Source: Azolla caroliniana
Taxonomy: Eukaryota; Plantae; Polypodiophyta
NCBI GenBank assembly: GCA_043228905.1
Contig: JBHGNT010000016.1
Location: forward strand, 4,402,001 to 4,466,000
Length of the DNA stretch: 64,000 nucleotides
Direction of reading: 5' to 3'
The notes beneath the pieces are model-generated. The model worked only from the letters and a program-made list of their open reading frames with translations, made no database searches and was not told the DNA's origin. The position numbers and the translations under genes were made by a program. Below are positions 441-42,200 of this stretch, one piece after another; within the stretch, counting starts at the first letter, position 1; each line of letters begins with the position of its first letter.

Positions 441-3400
441 TTGCGAGATCCGGTCCGCATAGGGCACACCTTCACCGATGGGACGCTCCGGGAGCTCAAG
501 ATGGGTGGGGACGGGTTCCTATTGCCGGCGGAGGAAGACCGGTTTCGGAGAATGCTCGGAAGGCACGGAAAAGCCTTCGCATTCTCACCGGAAGAGATCG
601 GGTGCGTAGACCCGACAATCGTGGAGCCGATGGTGATATTCACGGTACCGCATGTGCCGTGGAATCTCAAGCCGATTCCAGTACCGAGAGCTCACATCCC
701 GAAGTTGATGGAGCTATTGAGGCAAAAAGTCGATATGGGCATTCTCGAACCGTCGAGTGCCCCATACTCGAACCGATGGTTTACAGTACCAAAGAAAAAC
801 GGAACGATGCGGTTCATTCAAGACCTGCAGCCGGTCAACAAAGTGACCATTCGGAACGCAGGAATCGGACCGACCATAGACGAGTTCGCGGAGGCCTTCG
901 CCGGAAGGTCGATTTACTCGGTCGGGGATCTATACTCGGGGTACGACCAGTTCCAGCTAGCCGTGGAGAGCAGAGACATTACGACGATGCGATCTCCCCT
1001 CGGCCTAGTGCGAATGTGTACCTTGCCACAAGGAGGGACTAACTCGGTGGCCCACATGGTGAATGCAATGAACAAGGTACTGAGGGATTGTATCCCAGAC
1101 ATCACCATGCCGTTTCTAGACGACATCCCGATCAAGGGGTGCCCGGTGGAAGAGAAGGACGAGACACTCGGGCCGGACGGATGCCGGCGATTCGTGGCAG
1201 CACACATCGACGACTACGAGAAGGTGCTACAAAGGCTAGAGGATGCGAGGCTCACCTTCTCCGGGCAGAAATCGGCCTTCGGGCAATCACAAATCCTGGT
1301 GGTCGGACACCTATGTGGACCATATGGCCGGAAGCCGTCTCTGGCAAAGGTAGAAGCCATCTCCGCGATGAAGACCGACTGTAGCTCGGTTATGGAAGTT
1401 CGGAGGTTCCTGGGGGCATGCGCGTTCTACCACATATGGATCCCGCATTACGCCCACGTTGCGGAGCCGCTATATGGGTTGCTGAAGAAAGGGCGAAAGT
1501 TCGAATGGCGAGACGAGCACACGGAGTCGGTCCGGAAGCTGAAGGAAGCTCTTGCGGCAGCACCGGCGCTCCGGAAGGCTATCTACGAGAAGGGTACCCC
1601 GGTATACATAACGGTGGATACGAGTCCGACCGGGATCGGATGGGTCGTCAACCAAGAAGACGAGGACGGCATTCGGTTCCCGATCCGATTCGGCGCGAAG
1701 GTCCTCAGTGAGCGACAACGAGGGTACGCCCAGGTTAAACGCGAACTCTGGGGTATCGTTTCGGCGGTAAAGGCCGACAAAGACTACCTGATCGGGGCAG
1801 AAGTGATTATCAAGACGGATTGCCTGCCAATTCTCGGCATGGTTTCCGGATGCGCGACACCGGACCTGGTGATGCTCAGGTGGATAGCGTACATCAAGTC
1901 CCTGGACCTGGAAATACGACACATTTCCGGAAAGGACAACGCCATGGCCAACATGCTTTCGAGGGCGAGGTTTGATGACGAGGGCGGCATGGTTTCGGAG
2001 GACGAAGAAGTCGACGTGGACTTCTTCGAGGCAGCGTACGTGACGACCGATGGGACGAGCACTCCGGCGCTTAACGGCTTCGACAAGAGCAAGTACGACG
2101 GCGAGTGGCTACAGAGCGGTGGGTTTTTGAGGACAATGACGCCGGATGCGTCATGGACGAGGGACGAGGCCAACCGGATCCGGAAGAAAGCATACTGATT
2201 CTTTCTCCGGGACGGATACTTATGGAAGCACCTGAAGAAGAGGAACGGCGTCCTACTCCGGGTGGTGGCGATGAAGGAAGAATAGGAGGAGCTATTGACG
2301 GCCTACCACGATAGCCCTTGGGCTGGACACCGTGGAACGTGGGCCACGTTCGAGAAGATAAAGGGGAAGTACTGGTGGCCGGGACTGTACCGGGACGTGC
2401 ATCGGTTCGTGACAACTTGCGAGAGCTGTCAGATGCACTCCGTAGTCCGACATCGGGACGAGCTTCACCCTACGTACCCTCCGACCATCCACTTCAAATG
2501 GATGGTAGACCTGGTGACGATGCCGATGGGAGTAGGATAGATGCGGTATCTAGTCCTGGCTCGGGAAGATCTGACGAACCAGGTAGAAGGCCGAGCCCTT
2601 CAGAACAAAACGACCGCGGCCGTATGTCGGTTCCTGATCGAGGACGTGATATGCCGGTATGGGTGCGTCGGGAAGATCGTGGCTGATCGTGGGGAGTTGG
2701 ACGTCGAAGAGGCCGAGGAGCTGTTCGACCGGCTAGGAGTCAAGCTCTCGCTTACCACTGCATACAATCCGGAGGTGAATGGGAAGGTGGAGCGCGGACA
2801 CGGACCGATCGTCAAGGCGTTAGTTCGGGCATGCGGAGGGCAAGTCGGGAACTGGCCACGGCTACTGCCTTACGCGTTGTGGGCTGACCGAACTACGCAC
2901 AGTTCGGTAACCGGATTCATGCCGGCAGAGCTCATGTTTGGGCAGAAGCCGATCATGCCGATGGAACGTACGATCTCCTCATGGGCAACCGTGGACTGGA
3001 AAGACGAGATGAGCCGGGATGAACTGTTGGCGGCGCGCATGCGACAGCTCGAGCGAAGACCGAAGGACGTGGAGCTGGCTGCGGAAAAGCTTCGGGATGC
3101 AAGGATGAGGAACAAAACCCGGTTCGACCGAACGCACCGGCTCCGACCGAAGAAGATCGAGGAAGGCGACTGGGTGCTAGTCTACGACAGCAGCATCGAC
3201 AACCAGCACCGAGCGACACGGAAGTTCGCAAGAAGGTGGTTCGGGCCTTACGTGGTCCAAAGTGCCAACGACAACGGGACGTACCATCTGGCGGAACTCG
3301 ACGGCACGAGAGTGGCGATACCGGTAGCTGGGAAGCGGATCAAAGCGTTCAAGAAGCGTCACGACGACGAGCCGGATCCGGTTGACCTAGACCGCGACGA

Positions 3401-3443
3401 CGAACGATCCGAAACCGAGGAAGAACCGACGGGCGGGGAATGA
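441..3443 (+). pseudogene. Gypsy pol (RT, RNase H, integrase) interrupted by C>T nonsense codons
   Basis: ORFs 441-2198, 2295-2540 and 2541-3443 share one frame and are separated by TGA/TAG stops where CGA/CAG fits the protein context. Confidence 0.93.
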
Positions 3444-3516
3444 AGGTTGGACCGGTTTTCTCCGTCCCAACTCAATTTGGCGCATGCCGGTGGATGCGCG
3501 GTTAGGTGGGGGCGGA

Positions 3517-3765
3517 TGTCGTGAGGAAAACCGTCCACAAGCGGAATCGGTGCACCGGAGCGTAGGAACCGGCTCTTCATGCACGTGCGCCTAATGTTGT
3601 ACATAGGAGATCCTAGGCAGGTAGATTTGGTAGGTAGGAAGTAAAGGGGAAACGGCTCCTTCCTTGCCTATAAAAGGAGAGAGACGAGGGGGGGGCGAGG
3701 GGATCGCAGAGAGTCGAGGACGAAGTGCTATCGGTCTGTGGGCGGAAGGCTTCCCCCCCCCCCCC

Positions 3766-3829
<64 letters not shown>

Positions 3830-4236
3830 CGCTCGCAAACTCCGTAGCTTCTTACTGTGCAGGTTTCGAGAGGCTCGCGCTGCTTTGAGGAATGCCCGAG
3901 TGCTTCCGGCAGCACCTCCAACCTACTCTTTCCTTTCTGTGCGTTTACGAACAGGCATCGGCATCTGTTCGCCGGCCTGTTCGGTTGTAACCGACTTCGT
4001 GCTTCTTGTTGTTTATCTTGTTGATATATATATTTACATACATTCGTGTCTCTCTGTGTTGCTGTCGCACTCGCGTCTTTGTGTCGAAGGGCCGTGTCCC
4101 TGTGAATCTACGCTCGCACCTAGTGGGTCTCTTCCCTTCTCCTTTTCTCTCTTGCTCTTCGGTACAAGACCCCCGAGGTCCCGCCTCGTTCCACGCATCC
4201 ACGAGGAATACCTCGACAACGGTTTTCTTCACGACA
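3517..4236 (+). repeat. 3' LTR (720 bp) of the Gypsy element
   Basis: Terminal inverted repeat TGTCGTGAGGAAAACCG...CGGTTTTCTTCACGACA. TATAAAA at about 3669. Internal poly-C followed by (CT)n at about 3753-3826. Confidence 0.9.
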
Positions 4237-4569
4237 ATGCGGGAGAGTCAGAGAGAGTAGAACACAGAAAACTCTATTGCAAAAAATAACACTTTGTAAA
4301 CTCTGTACATCGAATGTACTCAGAGAGCACTTTTATACAAGTCCTTAAAAGGACTGATAGAAGTATTGACACGTATTTCAATGCTCATAACTCAGTGGCG
4401 AATGCTAAGTCCTAAAAATATGCCTACCTATTAGGCTAGGATCGTAGGCCTGTAATGGCCTACTGGTTACACACAGATCCAGACACCGATCTGGCTCTTG
4501 GTTCCGGATTACGATCCGGCTCTAGCTTATTTAGCCGATCTGGATCATGTTGAGCTTGTCCATTCAACA
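4237..4569 (-). mobile_element. Fragment of a Copia-like LTR, probably the insertion target of the Gypsy element
   Basis: On the minus strand it starts TGTTGAATGGACAAGCTCAACAT, resembling the Copia-1 LTR start TGTTGAGAATCAAGCTCAACAT. Contains a minus-strand TATAAAA. Confidence 0.5.
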
Positions 4570-6185
4570 CAAGTGAATTAGTTTATGTAAGGATCACAAA
4601 TAAAAATTTCAAAACATAAATTGTGCCACCAATAACATTATTTTGAGATGATAGTGGTTGAGAATTGTAATTTGATCGATGAATATTGGTTTTAAGTCAA
4701 ATTATTTGGTTGAAGTGACTACAAAAGACATTTAATGGTTGACCATGATGTGAGCTTAATAAGGCAACAAACATGAAAGAAACCTTATAACAAAAATTAT
4801 ATTGTGTATTATAATCATTGAATGAAGTTGTATGCTTAATGGTTTGTTTATGTGCATGTGACCAATTGGTGAGGTGCTTCTTCCTAAGTTGTATTGCCAA
4901 TGGCACGCGATGGGAAACCACCTACAAAGCAAGTATTTTATCTATTTAAAAATAAACACAAATAGTGAGTTTTGAACTCAACATCCTTATTCCTTGAACG
5001 AATGTAACTATTAAATAAGTATATTCTTCAAAATGTAGCGAAGATAATTATTATATGTCAACTAAAGCATGGTTGCTAAGTGGAGACATGCTCTTAGCCC
5101 TTAATGCATGTGAGACCCTATATAAAGGTGTTCTTATCTTATGTGAAAGGGGGAGAAGAGGAGGATAACAATTGTCAATATCTATTTTTCAAGGAGAAAA
5201 AATAGCATCCTCAAAAACTCTCAAAAGGAGTTTTGAAATCTTAGGTAAGTTCATATAATACAATTACATTTTGTTTCCATTTCGACATGTTTTATGTATA
5301 GAGTATTGAGTCATAATTTAAAAGTTATAATATATATATATATATATAATTTTATTAAAAAATATGTATGCTTTATTGGTAGAAATGATTCAATCTATCT
5401 CAAAGTTCATAAGTTCAAGACTTAACTCGGTAAAAATAATCCTTACGAAGTATATTTTGCCTTCTCAATCACCACTTGCGAATAAAGGCCCGACGCTTGT
5501 ATGTGCATGTATGCACCGACGCTTATATGTGCATGTGTGGTGCATACGTCAAGAGATTGTGATATCAAAATGGTCCAATGAATGAAAAGCACACCAATAG
5601 GAAACATGTATTTAGTCTCGCAATAGAACAATGGCACGATTTCGATGTTCTACTAGTCCCCCTTGTTGTTGACTATACATGGAGTCACTTGGTTGCCCTA
5701 AGTCAATTCTTGAAAGAGCAATTATATGTGTTATTTGAGCAAATTATGACAATTTATAGTTCATCATGTTTTTTCTCAATACAATTCATCCTGTTTTTTT
5801 CTCACCTTTGGGTAAGAAAAGTGAAGGGCATTTGAGAAAATATTGAGAAACTCTAAGGAGGGGATATCTGGGTGTGATCAATCAACTTATAGTTCACAAC
5901 TTTATATTAGTAAATGTGTGTGAAAAGCACAACACTATAATGGTAGCACAACTTAATGGTGTCACCGCCACATGGTGAATTGCCAATAGGCACGACGAAT
6001 ACTTCACCAAGGAAAGAATTTCTACTTGCTCCAATACAAAAAAAATACCACGTTAATATTCCCTTCAACCTCTCTATCTCTTTGGGGGAGGGGTAAAAGA
6101 GAAACACAATGCTACTGGACTTGACAGCAAAGCAATATACTATTCATTATTCTACAAATTACAGTAAAAATTCCACCCTTTTTAT

Positions 6186-23600: not shown

Positions 23601-24571
23601 GGACTCGATTCTCTTGGTGCTGATGTCGGGTGTGATATGGTTACCTGTTTGCCGTACTGGCAATGCTCACAGAATTTGTGATCCAAGAAGGAGAGCTTGG
23701 GGATGTAACCGGCTCTGGATAGGTGCATTATGCCGGCCTTCCTGAGGTGTCCAAGTCGTCCGTGCCATAACGATGACACGGGAATATCGACCAAAAACAA
23801 GTCACCCTCTTTGAGTGTGACATATAAAGGGTACAAGGAATGTACCTTTAGTCCTCGAGCAAGCAGGAGGTTCCCTTTGTGGAGTGTCCACCCTCTTGAT
23901 GAGAACCCGGCACGGATGCCAGCTTCGTCAAGTTGTCTGACTGAGATCAAGGGTTTTGAAAGCTCAAGAACGTGTCTGACGTTGTGTAATACGAGTGTAG
24001 AGCCACCCGGAAGGTTGAGCTCTACAGTGCCGATTCCGATTATGGCACAATGTTGCGAGTTCCCAACTCGAACTAAGTCGGAGTGCCGGTCCGAGTATTG
24101 CCGAAACTAAGATCGGTGAGGTGTCACATGATACGACGCGCCCGAGTCTAGGAGCCATGTCCTCGATTCCTCAGTCGTAAGCAGAACTTCTGATTCGATC
24201 GGGTTCTCTATGGACAATATGTTCGGGCGAGGAAGTGAGAAGAGGAGAGAGAGAGAGAAATAGGATGATGACAGCAGCTCTTATATTATATGAAAGATAA
24301 GTACAAATCGGCTAAGAGGCTTAAGACTGGTGTTGAACCAATTTGGTTCAAAACAATGCCTTGTGCCTCCTTTTATAGTGTTTTTAGGAATAATCCTGAA
24401 GCTTCTAGAATGTTCCAGAGAGATCTGGAATATACATCAATTTTCTATGATAAAGCATAAATGAAAATAATATCCTACAAAATACAATTCATAGTCTAAT
24501 GGTAAGAGCTCGACCCATGTAGCATAAGGTCATGGGATCGAGTCTTGCCATATCATGACACTATCTCCCCC

Positions 24572-27500
24572 TTAAAGACGACGAGTGAAACGAGTCGGCG
24601 CTAATTGCGGACCAGGTTTGTCCGGATACTTTCGGTGGAAATCAGCAAGAAGATCTTGTGCATTGGCAACATGCTCGACGGGTTCCCAAGTACGTTCGCT
24701 CGGACTATAACCGAGCCAATCAACCAAGTAATAAAGTTTGTTGCGAACAAGTTTGGAATCGAGGATGGTAGCAACTTCATACTCCGGGCCGGCGTCCAAC
24801 TCCAGCGGGGGCGGCGGTGGTGTCACACGATCGGGAATGGTGTTTGCTTTATAAGGTTCAAGAAGAGAACAATGGAAAACCGGATGTATTTGAAGCTGCG
24901 GAGGGAGATCAAGGCGGATGGTGACATCATTAATCTTCCCCGTAATACGGAAAGGACCAAGTCGTCGATAATCCAACTTGTCGCATGGTCGAGTAGTCTT
25001 GATGTGACGACATAAGAGCCATACTCGATCTCCGATGGCAAAAGAGGAGGGAATCCGATGACGATCCGCATAAGTCTTCTGTGTGTGTTGAGCATGACGA
25101 AGGTGAGTAGAGAGATCCATCTGGATCTTGTGTAGCCTCTCCAAATGATCCTCGGCACGAGGGTTGGTAGGTAGCTCCGGAGTGTCGATCACCGACCAGC
25201 GAGGATGGAAACCGGTATAAGTGAAAAATGGGGAGACCCGAGTCGAGGAGTGAATAGCATTATTATACACAAATTCCGCAAAGTGGAGAATCTCGGCCCA
25301 ATCGTCCTGTTGATAACTCAGGAAACACCGGAGATATTGCTCCAGCGTTTGGTTTGTTCGTTCCGCCTGTCCGTCGGTCTGAGGATGGTAGCCGAAGGAG
25401 AGGTTGCAGGAGACCTTGAGCATCTTGAAGAGATGCTGCCAAAATTTGGAGACAAATTGCTGGCCTCTGTCACTGATAATACTGTCTGGGAGGCCATGAT
25501 GCCGAAATACCTCACGCATGACAAGAGCGGCGGTTTCCTCGCTAGTGATGGCTTTAGTACATGGCACAAAATGTGCCATCTTCGTATATCGATCGACGAC
25601 GATTAGGATAGCATCGAACCCCTTCGAGACCGGTAGATCTGTGATAAAATCAAGACAAATAGACTGCCATGGCTTACTTGGAATCGGTAAAGGTTCCAAC
25701 AAGCCATATGGATGGTGTCGTGGCATCTTTGCTCGGAAGCAAGCATCACAGGTCCGAACGTAGTCGTCGACAAAACGGCGCATGTGGGGCCACCAAAAAG
25801 ATCGTTGCACTAGCTCCAACGTCTTAGTACTACCGAAATGTCCCGCCGTATGGGTGTCGTGACAATGTTGGACGATTTGAAGGCGACATGAGCAATCGGG
25901 GACATATACACGCTTTTTAAAGAATAACAAACCATCATGATATTCGAATTGTCGATAGTCAATACCTGGTTGTTGAGACTGAGAACAGGATGCCCGAGAA
26001 GTATCAATGTGCGCCAGGATGTCTTGAGCAAAACTATCCGTCTTCAAGGTTGCACGTATGTCATCGGTAATCCGTGAATCCATCGGGGTGTGAAAAATCC
26101 GCGTCGTGTGCAATCGTGTTGGTCCCAAGATTACTTGCTTTTGATTATCAAATGTTGCGTCACCAGGACGAGGTGCAAGATATGAACGTCGTGATAGTGC
26201 ATCTGCTTTTCCTTGCTGCTTCCCCGGTCGATATGTGATTTTGAAGTCGAAACGCGTGAGGAATTGCGCCCACCGAGCTTGCCGTCGATTTAGTACGCGA
26301 GCGTTCTGAAAATAAGCAAGATTTTTATGATCGCTAAAGACAATGACCTGATGTGGAGAGCCCTCCAAGAAATGCCGCCATTGTACAAATGAATCCACGA
26401 TGGCTAATAACTCCTTGTCATGTATTTCATAGTTGATTTCTGCGACATCGAATTTGCGCGAATGGAAAGCCACCGGATGCAACTCTTCTTTATCGCCTTG
26501 TTGAGAAAGGATGCTACCGAGGGCGAAATCAGATGCGTCGGCCTCCATGATGAATGGTTTGCTTGTATCCACATGAGCTAGAATCGGTGCTAATGTAAAG
26601 GCTTTCTTAAAATGCCGAAAAGCCATATCTGCTTTTATGGACCAAAGAAATGCTTGGCCCTTCTTCATAAGTTGTGTGAGAGGTAAAATAATCTTCGAGT
26701 AATCTTGTATAAACTTACGGTAGAAGTTAGCAAAACCTAGAAAACATTGTACATCTCATACCGACCGTGGAATTTGCCACTCTAGTACAGTTTGGATTTT
26801 AGCTGGATCCATGGCGATGCCCTTTGAGGAGATGACGTAGCCTAGAAATTCCACTTGCTTGCAGTCAAATCTACATTTTTCTAGCTTGGCATAAAGACCA
26901 TTCTCACGGAGTCGCTTTAGTACTAATAGTACATGAGAATCGTGCTCTTCCTGGGTCTTCCAATAAATCAACAGATCATCCAGATAAATGATCAAACAGA
27001 TATCCAAGAGGTCTCTGAATATATCATTTGCCATGTGTTGGAAGACTACGGGTGCATTGGTTAGGCCAAACGGCATAACAGTATACTCGAAATGCCCATA
27101 CCGTGTGCGAAAGGCGGTCTTCCACTCATCTCCCGGTCGGATCCGCACGAGATTATACGCTCCTCGTAGGTCGATTTTAGTAAAAAACTTGGCACCATTA
27201 ACTCGCTCTAAAAGACTTGATATAAGAGGAAGTGCATACCGATTCCGGATGGTGACTTTATTCAATCCGCGGTAATCAACGACAAGACGAAGTGAGCCAT
27301 CTTTCTTCTTGACAAAGAAGATGGGTGCACCGGCCGGAGATTTCGAATGGCGGATGAACCCGCTTGCCAAGTTCTCCTCTATGTAGGCTCGAAGGACTTC
27401 TAACTCGGTGGGTGACAAGTTGTAAATTGGTCCCCATGGTGGCTCGGTTCTTGGTTGTAAATCGATGGGACAATCATAGGGACGGTGATGAGGAAGGGTA

Positions 27501-28141
27501 CCGGCTTTTACCTTGTCAAATACATCGGCATAAGGATGATATTTTGCTGGAAGTTGTACTGAGGAGTCCTTAATAGTCCTGGAAGGATGTACTGATATTG
27601 CAAATAGGAACATTGCCTCCTTGGGTCCTTCTTCGCGTAGTTGATGGAGTGAAATGGTTGAAACTTGGTGAGGTGATTCTTGGGGTGGTCGATATCGGAC
27701 TTCTCTTGTTCTCCAATCTATGGTTGGATTATGTAATTCAAACCAAGGTAATCCTAGGACAATGGGATGCTCTGGACTACTAATTATATTAAATGATATT
27801 ACACACACAAAACTATCTAGGACAACTTGAATGGGTTCTGATTCTTCTACAATATTCCTAGAAGCAATGGGACGACCATCAATGACTACTATAGATGCGG
27901 GACAAGGAAGTTTTCTTAAGGATATCTGAGAAGCTTGGGCAAAATTTCGATTAATGAAACAGGAATTAGCTCTGGAATCTAAAAGTGCTAGGACGAGTAC
28001 TGGGGGAGTACTTTTAGTACTAACAATGACTTGGGCTAGGAACACATTGCTAACTTGCTTGGAAGGAATGGAACCACTAATGAGCTGTACAGATCTAGGG
28101 CTGCTGTCCAACCAAACGGCTCCTATTTTGGCTGGACTCAA
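24572..28141 (-). pseudogene. Chromovirus pol (PR-RT-RH-IN-chromodomain)
   Basis: ORFs 26756-28141 and 24572-26668 share one frame, separated by a single TGA where CGA fits. The protease motif reads DSRA instead of DSGA. Confidence 0.93.
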
Positions 28142-28150
28142 TCGTTTAAC
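28096..28150 (-). promoter_or_regulatory. Predicted -1 ribosomal frameshift signal (G UUA AAC plus stem/pseudoknot)
   Basis: Heptamer GTTAAAC at 28150-28144, two codons before the gag stop. 6-nt spacer, then an 11-bp stem GTCCAGCCAAA/TTTGGTTGGAC. Pol is in the -1 frame. Confidence 0.75.
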
Positions 28151-29262
28151 TCTTCATCTAATTGACTAAGGATTTCAAATTTATTTGATATACTTGGGCT
28201 ATTAGTACTATGAATACTATCAAACACTCTATTAGTACTATTAATACTATCAGACACTCCTAAGGGAAGAATTGACTCGGGTTTAGTACAGGCTACAATT
28301 TGATTTACCTGTCTTCTTGGCCTATGGGGACAATTGATTGCGATATGCCCTGGTCCACCGCAATAAAGACATAATCGATTTGCACGTCGTCATTGCTTTT
28401 CTTCTTCCGATAACGGGCCGCGTCGACACATGGTATCGATCTCCATCGGTGTCGAAGTATTTGCTTGAGGTATGTCTCGTGCAAATGGCCTAGCGCGTGG
28501 TATCTGTAATTGACGTTCCGAACGCCGTTCGAAGAGGCGGTTGTCACATCGGACCGCTCGACTGATTGCCTCCGTAAGAGAATTTGGTTCTTCGGGGAAA
28601 GTTAGAAGTAGATATTTGACATCATTTCGCAGGCCATAGCAAAACTGCTCCATTAGTGCTTGATCATCCCAGGGTATGTCGGAAGCGAGTAGGCGGAAAT
28701 CCGCCGCATAGGCAGAGGCTGGATGATCGCCTTGACGCAATCGCCGGATCTTGTTGATCGTCGTCCTGATGCTATCGGTGTCTCCAAAGCAGGCTTTGAA
28801 CTCACTAATAAAATCTTCAAAGTTATTAAGCAAGGGCGATTGTTTTTCTAGAAGCGGAGCGAACCATGCTAAGGCTGAGCCGCTAAGCAACGTGCCTATT
28901 AAGCTGACTCAAGATGCATCAGTGGGGTATCGGGAAGGATGCATTTGGAGGACTAATCGTACCTGATTAAGGAATCCCCTGAATTGCGATCGCGTTCCAT
29001 CAAATTTCCCAGGAAGTCCAATCTTCGGCTCTTTATGAAATCCTTGGGGACTTGATCCTTGTTGTTGCAATGCCGCTTCGAGTTGTTGCACCCGTAACGC
29101 TAACTCCCCATGTTGTTGCTGCGTTTGTTGCTTTTCTAGAGCGATTTGTTGCAGATCCCCTATCAGCCGTTGGTTTTCTTGTTCCAGGGCAACAAACTTT
29201 TCTTTTAGGCACTGTAACTCGGAGAAAACGGATTGATATTCTTGGGCGCTAACAGTAGCCAT
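28138..29262 (-). pseudogene. Chromovirus gag
   Basis: One frame from ATG 29262 to TGA 28138 with two internal TGA stops (28909, 28390). Coiled coil, capsid-like LLSGSALAWF and a CCHC knuckle. Confidence 0.9.
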
Positions 29263-29318
29263 AGTAGGGGGAAAAGGATAGGAGGATGAGGGAGAACGAC
29301 AAGTAGGTTGGAAGAAAG

Positions 29319-29330
29319 AAATTGGTTCAA
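29319..29330 (-). promoter_or_regulatory. Predicted self-priming PBS of the chromovirus
   Basis: Element-sense TTGAACCAATTT, 2 nt after the inferred LTR end, is perfectly complementary to AAATTGGTTCAA (29546-29535), which starts 33 nt downstream of TATAAAA. Confidence 0.7.
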
Positions 29331-29686
29331 ACTATCAGGAATAGTACTAAAGCAGAGATGGAATTAGTACTAAGAAGAGTAGTACTATTAGTACTAAGAG
29401 GACGGGACTGCGTAAGATTCCCGAGAGAGAGGAAGTGAGAAGAGGAGAGAGAGAGAGAGAAATAGGATGATGACAGCAGCTCTTATATTATATGAAAGAT
29501 AAGTACAAATCGGCTAAGAGGCTTAAGACTGGTGTTGAACCAATTTGGTTCAAAACAATGCCTTGTGCCTCCTTTTATAGTGTTTTTAGGAATAATCCTG
29601 AAGCTTCTAGAATGTTCCAGAGAGATCTGGAATATACATCAATTTTCTATGATAAAGCATAAATGAAAATAATATCCTACAAAATA

Positions 29687-29759
29687 CAATTCATAGTCTA
29701 ATGGTAAGAGCTCGACCCATGTAGCATAAGGTCATGGGTTCGAGTCTTGCCATATCATG
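29687..29759 (+). promoter_or_regulatory. tRNA-like Pol III A-box/B-box cassette inside the chromovirus LTR (second copy 24485-24557)
   Basis: A box TAGTCTAATGG at 29694-29704 and B box GGTTCGAGTCT at 29737-29747, with tRNA-like spacing. The cloverleaf is imperfect. Confidence 0.65.
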
Positions 29760-31322
29760 ACAGCTACTCTTCTGATCCACTCTCTGAGCTTTGTCGGTTT
29801 TTTCTTTGAGTGCCCGACAGTCGGCTTTGATGTGTCCTGGTTTCTTGCAGTATTTGTAAATTCGGTTGTCCTGGGACTTGCTCTGGCTTCGTTGATTGTT
29901 CAGCTGTCGGGAAGAACTTCTTCCCCGGTTGTTCGATCGGTCGGTCGAACCTTGTACTACGTAAGCTTCATCTGCCGAGTCTTTGGCGAAAGACTATCTC
30001 CGAGCTGCTTCAGCCAAGATTGCGCTCGTGACTTCGGAGTACTTAACGGTAGCTGTTGAAGCATTGCACACGGTTGTAACGAAAGTTTCCCATGAAGAGG
30101 GGAGACTACTCATGAGTATCATTGCTTTGAGTTCATCCTCGATTGCCGTCCCCTGAGACGAGATTTGGGAGCTTATGCTTTCGTACTCATTGAGGTGTGC
30201 CTGAACCGAATCGGATTCTTTCATCCGCAAGTTGTAGAGGCGCCGAATCAGATACATCTTCGTTGCCGCGACCTTCTTTTCATAAGTTCCGACAGTGTTT
30301 TCCAAAGTTCAAAAGTTGTCGTGCATGATTGCACTCTGAAGTACATTGACTCCGACAAGTGCATCCGAATCGTGGCGCGGACAATTCTATCCAGCTTTAG
30401 CCACTCGTTTGCCTTGTATGCTTCTGGAGGATTTTCATTCTCAATCGGGTCTATCTGACCCTTGACTATGAGATAGTCTTGCATTTGTTCCTTCCAGAAG
30501 TTGAAGTTCGAACTGTCGAACCTCCTTAGACTTATCTCCGATGAGCCGGATGTTGATGCCATCTACTTCGGTTTTGGTTGGTAAGACTCGGTTCGGAGTT
30601 GACTACGAACCTTAATGGAGTGCAGTCAGTCGGCTCACCCGATATCGTTCTAGTCGGTTTTGAACCCGAGTTGGTTTGGTTTCGGATACTTGTTGCTGAA
30701 CTTGCTCGGAGTGACTCCGGTAACTCGAGGGACAGAATCGGCTGGTTTTTCCGAATGTTGTCGAGTCGTAGTGAGCCCGGTTAGCTTCCGATTGTATGTC
30801 GAATACCGATTACACGAAACCGATTGTTTGGGCCGATACTGCTTTGGATGACTGCAACAATGAGAGGGATGGATCCAACTGATCCTCCCGAATGTCAATC
30901 AGCCGAGTGAAGCACGAATTTGGTTGTTGCCTGGAGACCAATCTGTAGCGGGTGGTTACAGCAAGCGGATGAATAGCGTCTGGTGACCTATTCAAATGTT
31001 GTTTAACCGAATGAAGCACGATTGGGTCAGTTGTTGCTCAAGGAGCTCCCCTCAAGTGGTTACAATCACAGGAACAGAGTACAGCCGACTGGCTTACTCC
31101 AATTTGTGATTTAACACAGTGAGATGCGAGCTTTTTGTTTTTCTTCTCCCTTCTCTGTTCTTCAAAGAAAATGAAAACAGAATGTTGTGTGGTGTACTAT
31201 GACGGCCGGTAGCAGGTTGAAGAACCTCCAACGCTCTGATACCAAATGTTGTGGACAAGGCCGTCAATGCGGAAGTGCAAGCAACATTCGTGATGAAGAA
31301 GAACCTATGTATGCGCATAAGC

Positions 31323-39232: not shown

Positions 39233-42200
39233 TCATGTGTCATTAACCTTTTCCTTGCCAAGCATCCTAATATCAGGAAGGCTTTCACATCCAGGACAGT
39301 TGTGTAAACTCTCATGGATATATATATCACAATCAAAACAAAAATGTTGTTTGCACCGAGGACATGCAACTCGGACTCCGGTCACTTTACCTCCTGTAAC
39401 ACCAAAAATAAATAGGGTTATCCTCATTGCTGATAGTTCTACACAATTCAATATACATATTCTGGGCTTGAGATTTAAAGATATGAATAACGTCATATGA
39501 TTTGATATAATTCACATTTTGCAAATAGATTATTTTACCTGCATAAGGAAGGTCTTGCTGGCATCCAAAACAGACCCTCGGGAGTTTAGAGACACCAACT
39601 AATGATATTTCTTCAAATGCTTGAATAGGAAATAGATGGTGGTAGGACCTTGCTAAATGTGGAGAAGAAACAAGCGTAAGATCACAGATATTACACTTTG
39701 TCGGTAACTCACAGACGCGTGCCTTGCACTGCGGACATGTATAACACACACCAACTTTCACCTCTTTATGGCATGCACATAAAGCAACAGACTCTTCTGA
39801 GCACCTCTCTGGGAAACCCATTCTTACAAGGCTTGCAATAGCAGATTCCGCAATAGCAGGTGGTGGAGGTGCATGCTCAAATATAAGCTCCTTCAAATGA
39901 CTCTGAGATGACACAAGTAAACAGCACTGTTATTACGAACCAGAGATAACAATTTGTAACATCTATATATCTTTTATTACCTCATTTAATGAGACGGAAT
40001 ATACACCACCTGTCTCCTCACAGAGGAGCTTACAGACGTAAATCTCTGCTGATAATCCCACAATAGAACACCGTATTTTGGCATCCTTACACTTCTTGAG
40101 AGTCTCCATTATATCTCCTGGATCACATGTGTTTAATGCAGAGAATATAATTAGTACTTCCCTGTGGCCATAAGATGGTATCTGAGCTAGAAAACTTCTC
40201 GAAAGCTCTAGGGCATTCTGAAGAGATGCATCACCACCACATTCCATGCTATTTCGCAAAGCTTTGATGTGTGCTTCAGGACTTCCACTGAGATCTGTCA
40301 GTCGATGTGCTATTCCATTTCTTATCGCTATCAGGCCAAGATGGCTCAAAGGATTTTGATCAAAGTACTCCCTAATAAAGGATTCCACTGCATTAACAAC
40401 TACAGCTATGTTGTTTGGGCGGTAGTCCATCTCCGCTGCTGCCTAGGCAAATCACAGGTTAATAAATTCAGGGTCATGAAATTTGATGAACACCTACGGT
40501 TTTATACTGACATTACTTAATATTGTCACTTAATTAACAGAGCCAAAACATTACTTAATGAGCAATCACTATATCACACTTCCATGTTTGAATATAACCC
40601 AGGGCAAAATGATATATGACCGCAATATCAACGGCAAGTGAATCTTTTATGACCTGCAGATAGAGGAGGTTGTGAGGGTAGAATGCACATAAAAAACGAG
40701 AAACTGATGGAAGATGAAAGAGGAGATATCTGCCACCATGAATACTGAAGTAATGTGTGCAAACAAAAAATAAATTAAAAATCTTGAAATACCAGCGGTT
40801 GAAATGACAGAGGCTATGAGGAAGACATAAAGAGCTTATGAAGTCTGAAGAAAAATTGAAGGGTACTGCAGTATTTTACACGGACCAATCTGTGCAAAAA
40901 GAAAAATCAAGAAAGGCTAGGAAATGGCAGAAAAACAAAAGGAGATGCAATCATGACAAGAAATGATCAAAGAAGCAAAAAAACAACACAGAGAAAAAGG
41001 AAAATGCACTTGAATAAACCTTAAGTGTGGTTGAAAAGAAACACATCGAAATGCCATTGAACAACTCGAGTGATCAATGCAGAAATACGAATATACATTT
41101 TGCAGAAAAAGTGGAAGGGTGGGCAGAAAAGGCTGGCCCACAAGAAGATTGTAAGAGTGTGCTAGAAATCCACATTGCCATTACATAGTCTCTATGGATT
41201 GCTTGGAAGAAGATCTCTCTCACAACAGAAGGGCACTCAATGGAGAAAAGACGTTTTTGGATGATAACCTGACAAGAAGACAGTTATCACACAAGGAGAA
41301 TATGATGACAACAGATGAAATCAAAAATAGTTTACAGCGTTCATAGGAAATCAGTGTTTTTATTAGAAAGAGGTTTGTAGGATGTGATGCTACCAATTAG
41401 CCCTACAGATATGAAATTGCACTCGATCTTTAGGGACAAATGCAAGCTCCAAAGATACTTTCAATCATAAATGGAAGTACCTGATCTACAAGCCTCTAAA
41501 TTCCATGTAGGAATCATTATTCTGCAACTAAGATCCACAATAACAAGCATCAGACATTAAGGTGGAGCGGTGATGTTGGATGGACATATCTCTACACATC
41601 AGAATCCAATGCTAACTAGACAGGCCATGTGTTGATTATGCAGCCTGCTATGCCTGAAGCCTCAAGTCCAACGACCATTGTTGACCGTTCACGAGCTATA
41701 ATATAAATCTCTATAAATATAGGTTAGAGAGAACTATTGTTTACAGAGTTCAAAGGAAATCACGAAGTTAAAAATATTAGACCTTACAAATATAGAAATG
41801 CAATGTAACTTTGGGACAAATGCATGCTTCGAGGAAACAATCACAAGCCGTCTAGGTTACAAATAGGAATCGCTGTTCTGCAACCAACAATGCACATTGC
41901 ACAATAACAAGCATCAGGCATTAAGGTGGAGTGGTGAAGTTGGATGCGCACACCTCCACACGTCAAAACCAATGCTAACTAAGCAGCCCATGTGTCTGCT
42001 GATCATGCAGGCTGCCATCCCTAGTATTACAGATTGGACTAATGATGAGAAAAAGAATAAGAGATTACGGAGAAGAATGCATTACGGGTGTTTGACAATG
42101 CCAACCACCCCAGAGCGAAGGACATGAGACAGACAAAATACAATCGGTGTCCCATACCACCAAATATTACCTTATGTTATACCTTGGTTGTTGAATGAAA

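What the first reader, a model, noticed from the sequence alone, without database searches (positions are those of the whole stretch)
29687..29762. tRNA-like Pol III promoter built antisense into both LTRs of a chromovirus
Seen: the U3 tip of both LTRs carries a plus-strand A box (TAGTCTAATGG, 29694/24492) and B box (GGTTCGAGTC at 29737; GGATCGAGTC at 24535). They are 44 nt apart from the U8-equivalent to the G53-equivalent, close to the tRNA spacing. The cassette overlaps a hairpin CTCGACCCATG...CATGGG(T/A)TCGAG. The only substitution I see between the two LTRs lies in the B box. Known: Cassandra TRIMs carry 5S rRNA A/C boxes in their LTRs; I do not know of a described tRNA-type cassette in Tcn1-like LTRs. 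Inference: from the 3' LTR, Pol III would read across the PPT and antisense through chromodomain and integrase (no run of 4 or more T seen until about 25914), giving a built-in antisense or self-limiting RNA. From the 5' LTR it points outward to a T6 at 29798, and TFIIIC binding could insulate the element inside heterochromatic TE nests. The element appears not to need a tRNA primer, which makes the cassette more notable.
Basis: partly seen in the sequence, partly recalled or inferred. Interest (0 to 1): 0.82.

Follow-up and report, generated by a model that had tools for sequence, protein, structure and literature searches.

The report
Backwards tRNA promoter in fern retrotransposon
An abundant fern jumping gene carries, back to front at the tip of its terminal repeats, the two promoter boxes of a tRNA gene; these boxes are also kept in a distant relative, so they likely still recruit RNA polymerase III factors next to the element's own predicted heat-shock promoter, although no RNA or binding data show this yet.

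Summary
Both LTRs of a self-priming, Tf1/sushi-type chromovirus in a fern carry an antisense tRNA-type A box, AGGTC and B box at the U3 tip. A tRNA-trained profile scores it 22.4 (real tRNAs 21-35; 0 of 1000 shuffles). The family is very abundant, and the B box shows no variant at 4% or more in four runs. The closest relative retrieved (58% integrase identity, synonymous sites saturated) keeps the boxes, orientation, position and spacing, but neither the hairpin nor the middle. 87 other LTR tips lack it, including three in the same clade. So the boxes look selected but dispensable. New here: a four-unit heat-shock element lies about 75 bp from the A box, ahead of a TATA box. Best reading (45%): a TFIIIC/TFIIIB platform back to back with a heat-inducible Pol II promoter. 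The long antisense RNA is weaker: the relative has T5 after 123 nt, and this copy's 3' B box is mutated. No RNA or binding data. It resembles Helenus TRIMs but is autonomous and antisense. This scan noted tRNA boxes in fungal retrotransposon LTRs before.

The parts
29333..29762 (-). 5' LTR, 430 bp, starts TGTCATG
   Evidence: most laid depth reads G at 29334, which gives the canonical CA end; the PBS follows 2 nt later
24229..24560 (-). 3' LTR remnant; U5 end and TSD removed by a deletion
   Evidence: 332 bp match to the 5' LTR with 1 substitution and a 2-nt indel; flanking copia frame is discontinuous
29694..29704 (+). A box (tRNA positions 8-19), 5' LTR
   Evidence: family variation mostly at positions 9, 11 and 12, but G10>A in 1-20%
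29729..29746 (+). AGGTC variable-loop motif plus B box (positions 44-61), 5' LTR
   Evidence: no variant at 4% or more in 4 runs; 14 of 18 identical to L001; the same motif hits real tRNA genes
24492..24544 (+). Cassette in the 3' LTR; B box carries T54>A at 24537
   Evidence: score 17.0 against 22.4; A is not a family variant at 4% or more
29701..29753 (.). [quoted passage not shown]
   Evidence: z -5.7 on +, -4.9 on -; not shared by L001
29642..29689 (+). AT-rich (82%) upstream flank with CAA triplets; predicted TFIIIB site and start region
   Evidence: L001 78% AT; CAA at 29680-82 (-7 to -5, variable in the family) and 29687-89 (nearly fixed); plant signature from PMC3082873
29600..29617 (.). 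Four-unit heat-shock element consensus GAAnnTTCnnGAAnnTTC (also 24398-24415)
   Evidence: the only four-unit matches in the window; L001 has three 3-unit matches; 2 of the other 76 LTRs have one
29573..29579 (-). TATA box (TATAAAA) of the sense Pol II promoter
   Evidence: sequence
29535..29546 (-). Predicted transcript 5' end and self-primer, 33 nt after the TATA box
   Evidence: 12-nt perfect complement of the PBS
29319..29330 (-). Self-priming primer binding site
28154..29262 (-). gag region, interrupted by stops
   Evidence: Retrotrans_gag and Ty3_capsid hits; frames
24572..28153 (-). pol: protease region, RT, RNase H, integrase, SH3, chromodomain with Y/W/Y cage; one in-frame stop
24561..24573 (-). 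Polypurine tract
25914..25918 (+). First T run of 4 or more downstream of the 3' LTR cassette (T5)
29763..30100 (-). Flanking copia gag (zinc knuckle); contains the T6 at 29798. The copia continues below 24228

Best explanation
The U3 tip of this fern chromovirus carries an antisense tRNA-type A box and B box that are conserved in a distant relative, and these likely bind TFIIIC and load TFIIIB back to back with the element's predicted heat-inducible Pol II promoter, where they would tune or shield that promoter. Shown: the boxes, their spacing and orientation, their conservation, the heat-shock element, TATA box and self-priming site. Inferred: (1) origin by capture of a tRNA-derived SINE head or tRNA fragment in an ancestral U3, copied into both LTRs by ordinary reverse transcription; (2) selection on the DNA boxes rather than on an RNA cloverleaf; (3) TFIIIB on the AT-rich 29642-29686 stretch, roughly 25-70 bp from the heat-shock element, keeping it nucleosome-poor or acting as a barrier at the outer edge of the 5' LTR in nested, heterochromatic sites. 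Any Pol III transcripts (outward from the 5' LTR, antisense from the 3' LTR) would be by-products of variable length.
For: Profile scores 22.4 (window) and 22.7 (L001) against at most 7.1 for 87 other antisense LTR tips; 0 of 1000 shuffles. Four-fold sites between the window and L001 are 47 of 167 identical (28%, saturated), yet positions 44-61 are 14 of 18 identical, with the differences at 49, 50, 52 and 59. The middle is about random, and spacing is 44 against 46. T-stem and acceptor stem are not kept in either copy and the rod hairpin is not shared (sequence). Family: 0 of 36 positions vary at 4% or more over 29727-29762, and T8, A14, G18 and G19 vary by 5.4% or less, while adjacent 29691/29692 vary up to 100% and 93%. 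Both cassette-bearing LTRs have heat-shock elements, and L002, L003 and L034 lack both. tRNA genes are nucleosome-poor (PMC11346459 passages). Barrier activity of tRNA genes and their effects on neighbouring Pol II promoters are recalled knowledge, not from a call.
Against: No RNA, ChIP or reporter data. Three close relatives lack the cassette, so it is dispensable. Deep conservation rests on one relative (L001, one contig, one LTR). G10 of the A box changes to A in up to 20% of depth, and the changes at positions 9 and 11 are transitions that are expected anyway. Both hairpin arms are as conserved as the B box within the family, and the tip is constrained by integrase. The B box holds a CpG, and TFIIIC is reported to be excluded by CpG methylation. 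Contig depths are not copy counts, and alignment at 80% or more hides diverged copies. The profile was trained on 20 archaeal tRNAs, not fern ones.
Confidence: 0.45

Rival explanations
1. Built-in antisense or small-RNA unit. Pol III from the 3' LTR makes an RNA that folds into a rod of about 21 bp and reads antisense across the PPT, chromodomain and integrase, feeding self-limiting silencing.
For: No T4 for 1.4 kb; 0 A4 runs against 4.1-4.5 expected from codon resampling, P about 0.002, the lowest of the 64 rows listed. L001 is also depleted (P 0.035). Strong hairpin. Precedent: Pol III hairpin pre-miRNAs inside bovine leukemia virus (PMC10236774 passages).
Against: L001 has T5 123 nt after its A box. 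6 of 77 other elements have an equally long T4-free stretch. The test region was chosen after the fact. This copy's 3' B box is mutated. No terminator follows the hairpin, and L001 lacks the hairpin.
Confidence: 0.2
2. The selected thing is the hairpin or LTR-end structure (integrase attachment, plus-strand priming right after the PPT, RNA 3'-end folding). The boxes are a captured tRNA relic preserved because they overlap it.
For: Both arms conserved: 1 of 21 and 0 of 21 positions vary at 10% or more, against 2 of 11 in the loop. The non-promoter 5' arm is as fixed as the B box. L001 also has a hairpin, a different one, at its tip.
Against: L001 keeps the boxes and spacing outside its own hairpin while the window's hairpin is absent. 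The 5' half of the A box lies outside the hairpin, yet T8 and A14 hold.
Confidence: 0.2
3. Neutral passenger: a SINE head or tRNA piece inserted into U3 and was amplified with a successful family. The match in L001 reflects an independent capture or an LTR swap.
For: Absent from L002, L003 and L034 in the same 96-support clade; the tree needs 2 changes. tRNA-like pieces recur in unrelated LTRs (two sense cassettes in L089; Kojima's remark). A young family looks uniform without selection.
Against: Same position, orientation and spacing in L001 with a randomised middle and conserved boxes. A swap or recent capture would not randomise only the middle.
Confidence: 0.15

Closest known systems
Helenus TRIMs (TRIMp3; Kojima 2024, PMC10886601; read parts 1-4 of 6, searched passages, one supplement passage)
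   Same: [quoted passage not shown]
   Different: Helenus is non-coding, 311-1263 bp and tRNA-primed. In the three LTRs seen whole in the supplement passage the cassette is sense. Here it is a 5.5-kb gag-pol chromovirus, self-primed, with an antisense cassette at the U3 tip and a separate TATA/heat-shock promoter. The paper says 'not a few' Repbase LTRs resemble part of a tRNA but analysed only TRIMs.
Cassandra TRIMs (PMC7215508 passages; PMC10886601)
   Same: Pol III promoter inside LTRs; present in ferns
   Different: 5S type-1 promoter (boxes A and C), non-autonomous, drives the element's own transcript, tRNA-type PBS
Tcn1 clade / Tf1-sushi chromoviruses (PMC6317226 and PMC2864245 passages)
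   Same: self-priming, aromatic-cage chromodomain, non-seed-plant host, LTR of about 430 bp (SM-Tcn1 440 bp)
   Different: reported from mosses and lycophytes, not found by PCR in ferns; the passages read mention no tRNA-like LTR cassette
ONSEN/ATCOPIA78 (PMC3907296 passages)
   Same: heat-shock element consensus in the LTR
   Different: Ty1/copia in Arabidopsis with HSFA2 binding shown; heat response untested here; no Pol III cassette in the passages read
Bovine leukemia virus Pol III miRNA cluster (PMC10236774 passages)
   Same: type-2 Pol III boxes and hairpins inside an autonomous retroelement
   Different: internal, sense, five units each with its own terminator; expression shown

Membership tests
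Helenus / TRIMp3 | tRNA-derived sequence with boxes A and B in both LTRs | tested here: met
Helenus / TRIMp3 | Non-coding TRIM of about 0.3-1.3 kb | tested here: not met
   5.5 kb with gag and pol domains; close relatives with an unbroken RT-to-chromodomain polyprotein (P0294, 95% over RT)
Helenus / TRIMp3 | Cassette in sense orientation, able to transcribe the element | tested here: not met
   antisense 22.4, sense -0.7; sense in the Helenus LTRs seen
Helenus / TRIMp3 | tRNA-complementary PBS | tested here: not met
   the PBS is complementary to the element's own R region
Functional tRNA gene | Cloverleaf with acceptor, anticodon and T stems | tested here: not met
   ARAGORN 0 genes, Rfam no tRNA match; folds as a rod
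Type-2 Pol III promoter | A box and B box at tRNA-like spacing | tested here: met
   44 nt; training tRNAs 44-48
Type-2 Pol III promoter | Plant upstream AT-rich/TATA-like region and CAA | tested here: inconclusive
   82% AT; CAA at -7 to -5 varies in the family; no significance test
Type-2 Pol III promoter | Own oligo-T terminator | tested here: not met
   none in the LTR; T5 is 1.4 kb away, T6 is in flanking DNA
Type-2 Pol III promoter | TFIIIC/Pol III occupancy or transcript | not testable with these tools
   needs ChIP, RACE or in vitro transcription
Tcn1 clade (Tf1/sushi chromovirus) | Self-priming PBS | tested here: met
   (predicted from complementarity)
Tcn1 clade (Tf1/sushi chromovirus) | Chromodomain with aromatic cage after the integrase | tested here: met
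   PF00385, E 6e-13; Y, W, Y read from the translation
Tcn1 clade (Tf1/sushi chromovirus) | RT/IN phylogeny groups with named Tcn1 references | tested here: inconclusive
   no named Tcn1 reference was retrieved; named RT hits with the highest identity are frog elements (up to 65%) against 47-52% for angiosperm ones; quick tree only

The most novel reading that the evidence does not exclude
An ancient lineage of autonomous plant chromoviruses carries its own tRNA-gene promoter as a regulatory part. A Pol III complex sits back to back with a heat-shock promoter and shields or damps it, and from the 3' LTR it makes antisense RNA. This would be a self-contained, stress-gated Pol II/Pol III switch, which seed-plant chromoviruses such as L089 may have evolved in parallel.
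Probability: 0.3. Interest if true: 0.85.

Novelty: new variant of a known kind. Interest (0 to 1): 0.6.

Why it matters
Pol III promoters in LTRs are described for tiny non-coding TRIMs, where they drive the element's own RNA; Kojima 2024 argues that autonomous partners must use Pol II. A conserved antisense cassette in an autonomous, very abundant fern element cannot drive the genomic RNA, so it would need another job. If TFIIIC binds it, a single family would scatter large numbers of potential barrier or Pol III sites through large fern genomes. It would also give a testable case of a retrotransposon using Pol III machinery to control its own Pol II promoter or to make its own antisense RNA.

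Tried and rejected
No whole genome is held, so full-length copies could not be collected. Family variation comes from contigs of 5 different runs: searches runs each, 3 shared; 5 of the 24 listed. No RNA holder listed; X17 was flagged 'probably DNA'; this says nothing about expression. Functional tRNA rejected. Rfam on L001 gave only two weak unrelated matches. A plain match-count score did not separate L001 from background (14 of 17; 9 of 72 reached 14, 4 were higher), so the tRNA-trained profile was built. Viral contigs: the single-protein scan found nothing; the exact LTR-tip pattern found 0; the A-box pattern found 14 matches with no B box behind them; the tip-plus-B-box pattern found 11, of which 10 are phage tRNA genes by ARAGORN. 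The donor tRNA or SINE was not identified, because no fern tRNA set was available. No complement of 11 nt or more to the LTR tip exists elsewhere in the element, so the cassette is not a primer or pairing partner. The sigma-70 scan is irrelevant to a plant. The careful tree did not finish; only the quick tree was read. Of 177 loci, 88 gave a heuristic PPT/LTR tip and 89 were dropped; some tip calls are probably wrong. The landing-pad idea from earlier notes was not tested. Literature: 10 searches. None of the listings showed a paper on antisense tRNA-type boxes in autonomous chromovirus LTRs; 'Tekay, LTR, tRNA-like, polymerase III' and 'fern genome, Tcn1, LTR' gave 0. Subscription papers and Repbase were not searched. 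A recalled 1991 paper on Ty3 and adjacent tRNA promoters was not held, and PMC5911963 had no passage on tRNA-gene-mediated silencing.

Full report
Setting. The window comes from a fern: the TFIIH-subunit ORF at 39966-40442 is 82% identical to Adiantum capillus-veneris, against 71-75% for gymnosperms, moss and a lycophyte. The element lies on the minus strand with gag, RT, RNase H, integrase, SH3 and a chromodomain. This copy has stops in gag and one in pol. It is nested in a copia gag-pol, whose zinc knuckle starts at 29763 and whose protease lies below 24228. The 5' LTR is 29333-29762. The 3' LTR (24229-24560) lost its U5 end and the target-site duplication in a deletion. The shared 332 bp differ by one substitution and a 2-nt indel, which gives about 0.1-0.3 Myr under assumed rates. 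Two nt after the 5' LTR is a 12-nt site complementary to 29546-29535, 33 nt after a TATA box. That is the self-priming layout predicted for most Tcn1 elements (PMC6317226 passages).

Observation. An AGGTC, as in the variable loop of many tRNAs, precedes the B box. It is not a tRNA: the region folds as a rod with arms 29701-29721 and 29733-29753 (z -5.7). A profile built from 20 intronless archaeal tRNAs (from 30 loci fetched) scores it 22.4 in the 5' LTR and 17.0 in the 3' LTR. The training tRNAs score 21-35, and 0 of 1000 shuffles reach the observed values. Across the whole window 29694 is the top hit, but unrelated sites reach 19-20, so the score alone is moderate evidence.

Family variation. 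The LTR is very abundant: 3018-4924 contigs per run were laid on it in organisms A, B and C. On 29650-29765, four runs from four coded organisms (461-1608 contigs each) show no variant at 4% or more over 29727-29762. In the A box, T8, A14, G18 and G19 vary by 5.4% or less. Position 9 changes only to G, 11 only to C, and 12 is free. G10 changes to A in 1-20%, which goes against the consensus. The adjacent 29691 and 29692 vary up to 100% and 93%, and hairpin-loop positions up to 83%. Many contigs carry one extra base near 29706 (loose ends). The A at 24537 is not a family variant, so it is most likely decay in this copy's 3' LTR. Limits: depths are not copy counts, alignment needed 80% likeness, and both hairpin arms are conserved, so this test cannot separate promoter from hairpin.

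Distant relatives. Three scans gave 177 loci; 88 had a recognisable PPT and LTR tip. The closest, L001 (58-59% integrase identity), has an antisense cassette at the same tip, score 22.7, 0 of 1000 shuffles; the other 87 tips reach at most 7.1. Four-fold sites are saturated (47 of 167 identical), yet positions 44-61 are 14 of 18 identical, differing only at 49, 50, 52 and 59. The spacing is 46, the middle is about random, and the upstream flank is 78% AT against 82% here. L001 does not form the window's rod, and neither copy keeps a proper T stem. This pattern is what selection on DNA promoter boxes predicts, and it is the main evidence. It rests on one contig. In a quick tree (51 rows; the careful search did not finish) the window's element and L001 share a 96-support clade with L002, L003 and L034, which lack the cassette; 2 changes are needed. 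Either an old gain with losses or two gains fits, so the cassette is dispensable.

New anatomy. U3 holds a perfect four-unit heat-shock consensus at 29600-29617, found nowhere else in the window except the other LTR. L001 has three 3-unit matches, and only 2 of the other 76 LTRs have one. The layout is: outward-facing A/B cassette, AT-rich stretch, heat-shock element, TATA, sense start. Plant tRNA genes have an upstream TATA-like region and CAA at -7 to -3 (PMC3082873 passages; PMC13578239 passages). A CAA sits at -7 to -5 here but varies in the family, so this is inconclusive.

Mechanism. Best reading (0.45): TFIIIC binds the boxes and places TFIIIB on the AT-rich stretch next to the heat-shock element, keeping the promoter open or shielding it in nested, methylated surroundings. 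All binding steps are inferred. Barrier activity of tRNA genes and their repression of neighbouring Pol II promoters are recalled, not read here. CpG methylation of the B box argues against activity in most copies (PMC11346459 passages). It loses because L001 has T5 after 123 nt, 6 of 77 other elements have equally long T4-free runs, and this copy's 3' B box is damaged. Hairpin or end constraint (0.2) and neutral passenger (0.15) remain. Together, about 0.65 that the boxes themselves are the selected feature.

Comparison. It works like Helenus in carrying tRNA boxes in its LTRs, but it fails membership on size, coding, orientation and priming (PMC10886601). Kojima notes that 'not a few' LTRs resemble part of a tRNA but did not analyse autonomous ones. 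L089, a distant chromovirus (33% identity) whose LTR looks like a seed-plant type, has two sense cassettes, so capture recurs. Earlier scan notes report tRNA boxes in fungal chromovirus LTRs as landing pads and a backwards relic judged a passenger; these are unreviewed and were not re-tested on their DNA. Ten literature searches showed no paper on this arrangement, within an open-access library only. Verdict: real, probably selected, function untested; a new variant of a known kind; interest 0.6.

Noticed in passing
L089:4834-4893 and about 5000-5060: A distant chromovirus LTR (tip at 4726; 33% identity; looks like a seed-plant type) carries two sense tRNA-like A/B cassettes, each followed by T-rich sequence; the first scores 25.5, the best in 1.01 Mb of loci.
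   Followed up: partly
window 60448 and 60312, minus strand: Two degenerate SINE-like A/B units 136 bp apart (scores 19.5 and 19.3), similar to each other; possibly an old fern SINE.
   Followed up: no
window 29600-29617 and 24398-24415; L001 LTR: Perfect heat-shock element consensus in U3, which suggests a heat-inducible, ONSEN-like retrotransposon family in ferns.
   Followed up: partly
window 24229-29762: A self-priming Tf1/sushi-type chromovirus at high copy in a fern; Tcn1 was reported from mosses and lycophytes and was not amplified from ferns.
   Followed up: partly
window 29518-29571; L001 and L003 after the TATA box: A hairpin over the predicted transcript start in all three LTRs, ending in a shared AACACCAGT, probably part of the self-priming structure.
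   Followed up: no
L098-L177: Up to 80 eukaryotic-type gypsy retrotransposon loci lie in prokaryotic species-representative genomes, most likely assembly contamination.
   Followed up: no
window 24228/24229 junction: A deletion removed the end of the 3' LTR, the target-site duplication and part of the host copia between zinc knuckle and protease.
   Followed up: partly
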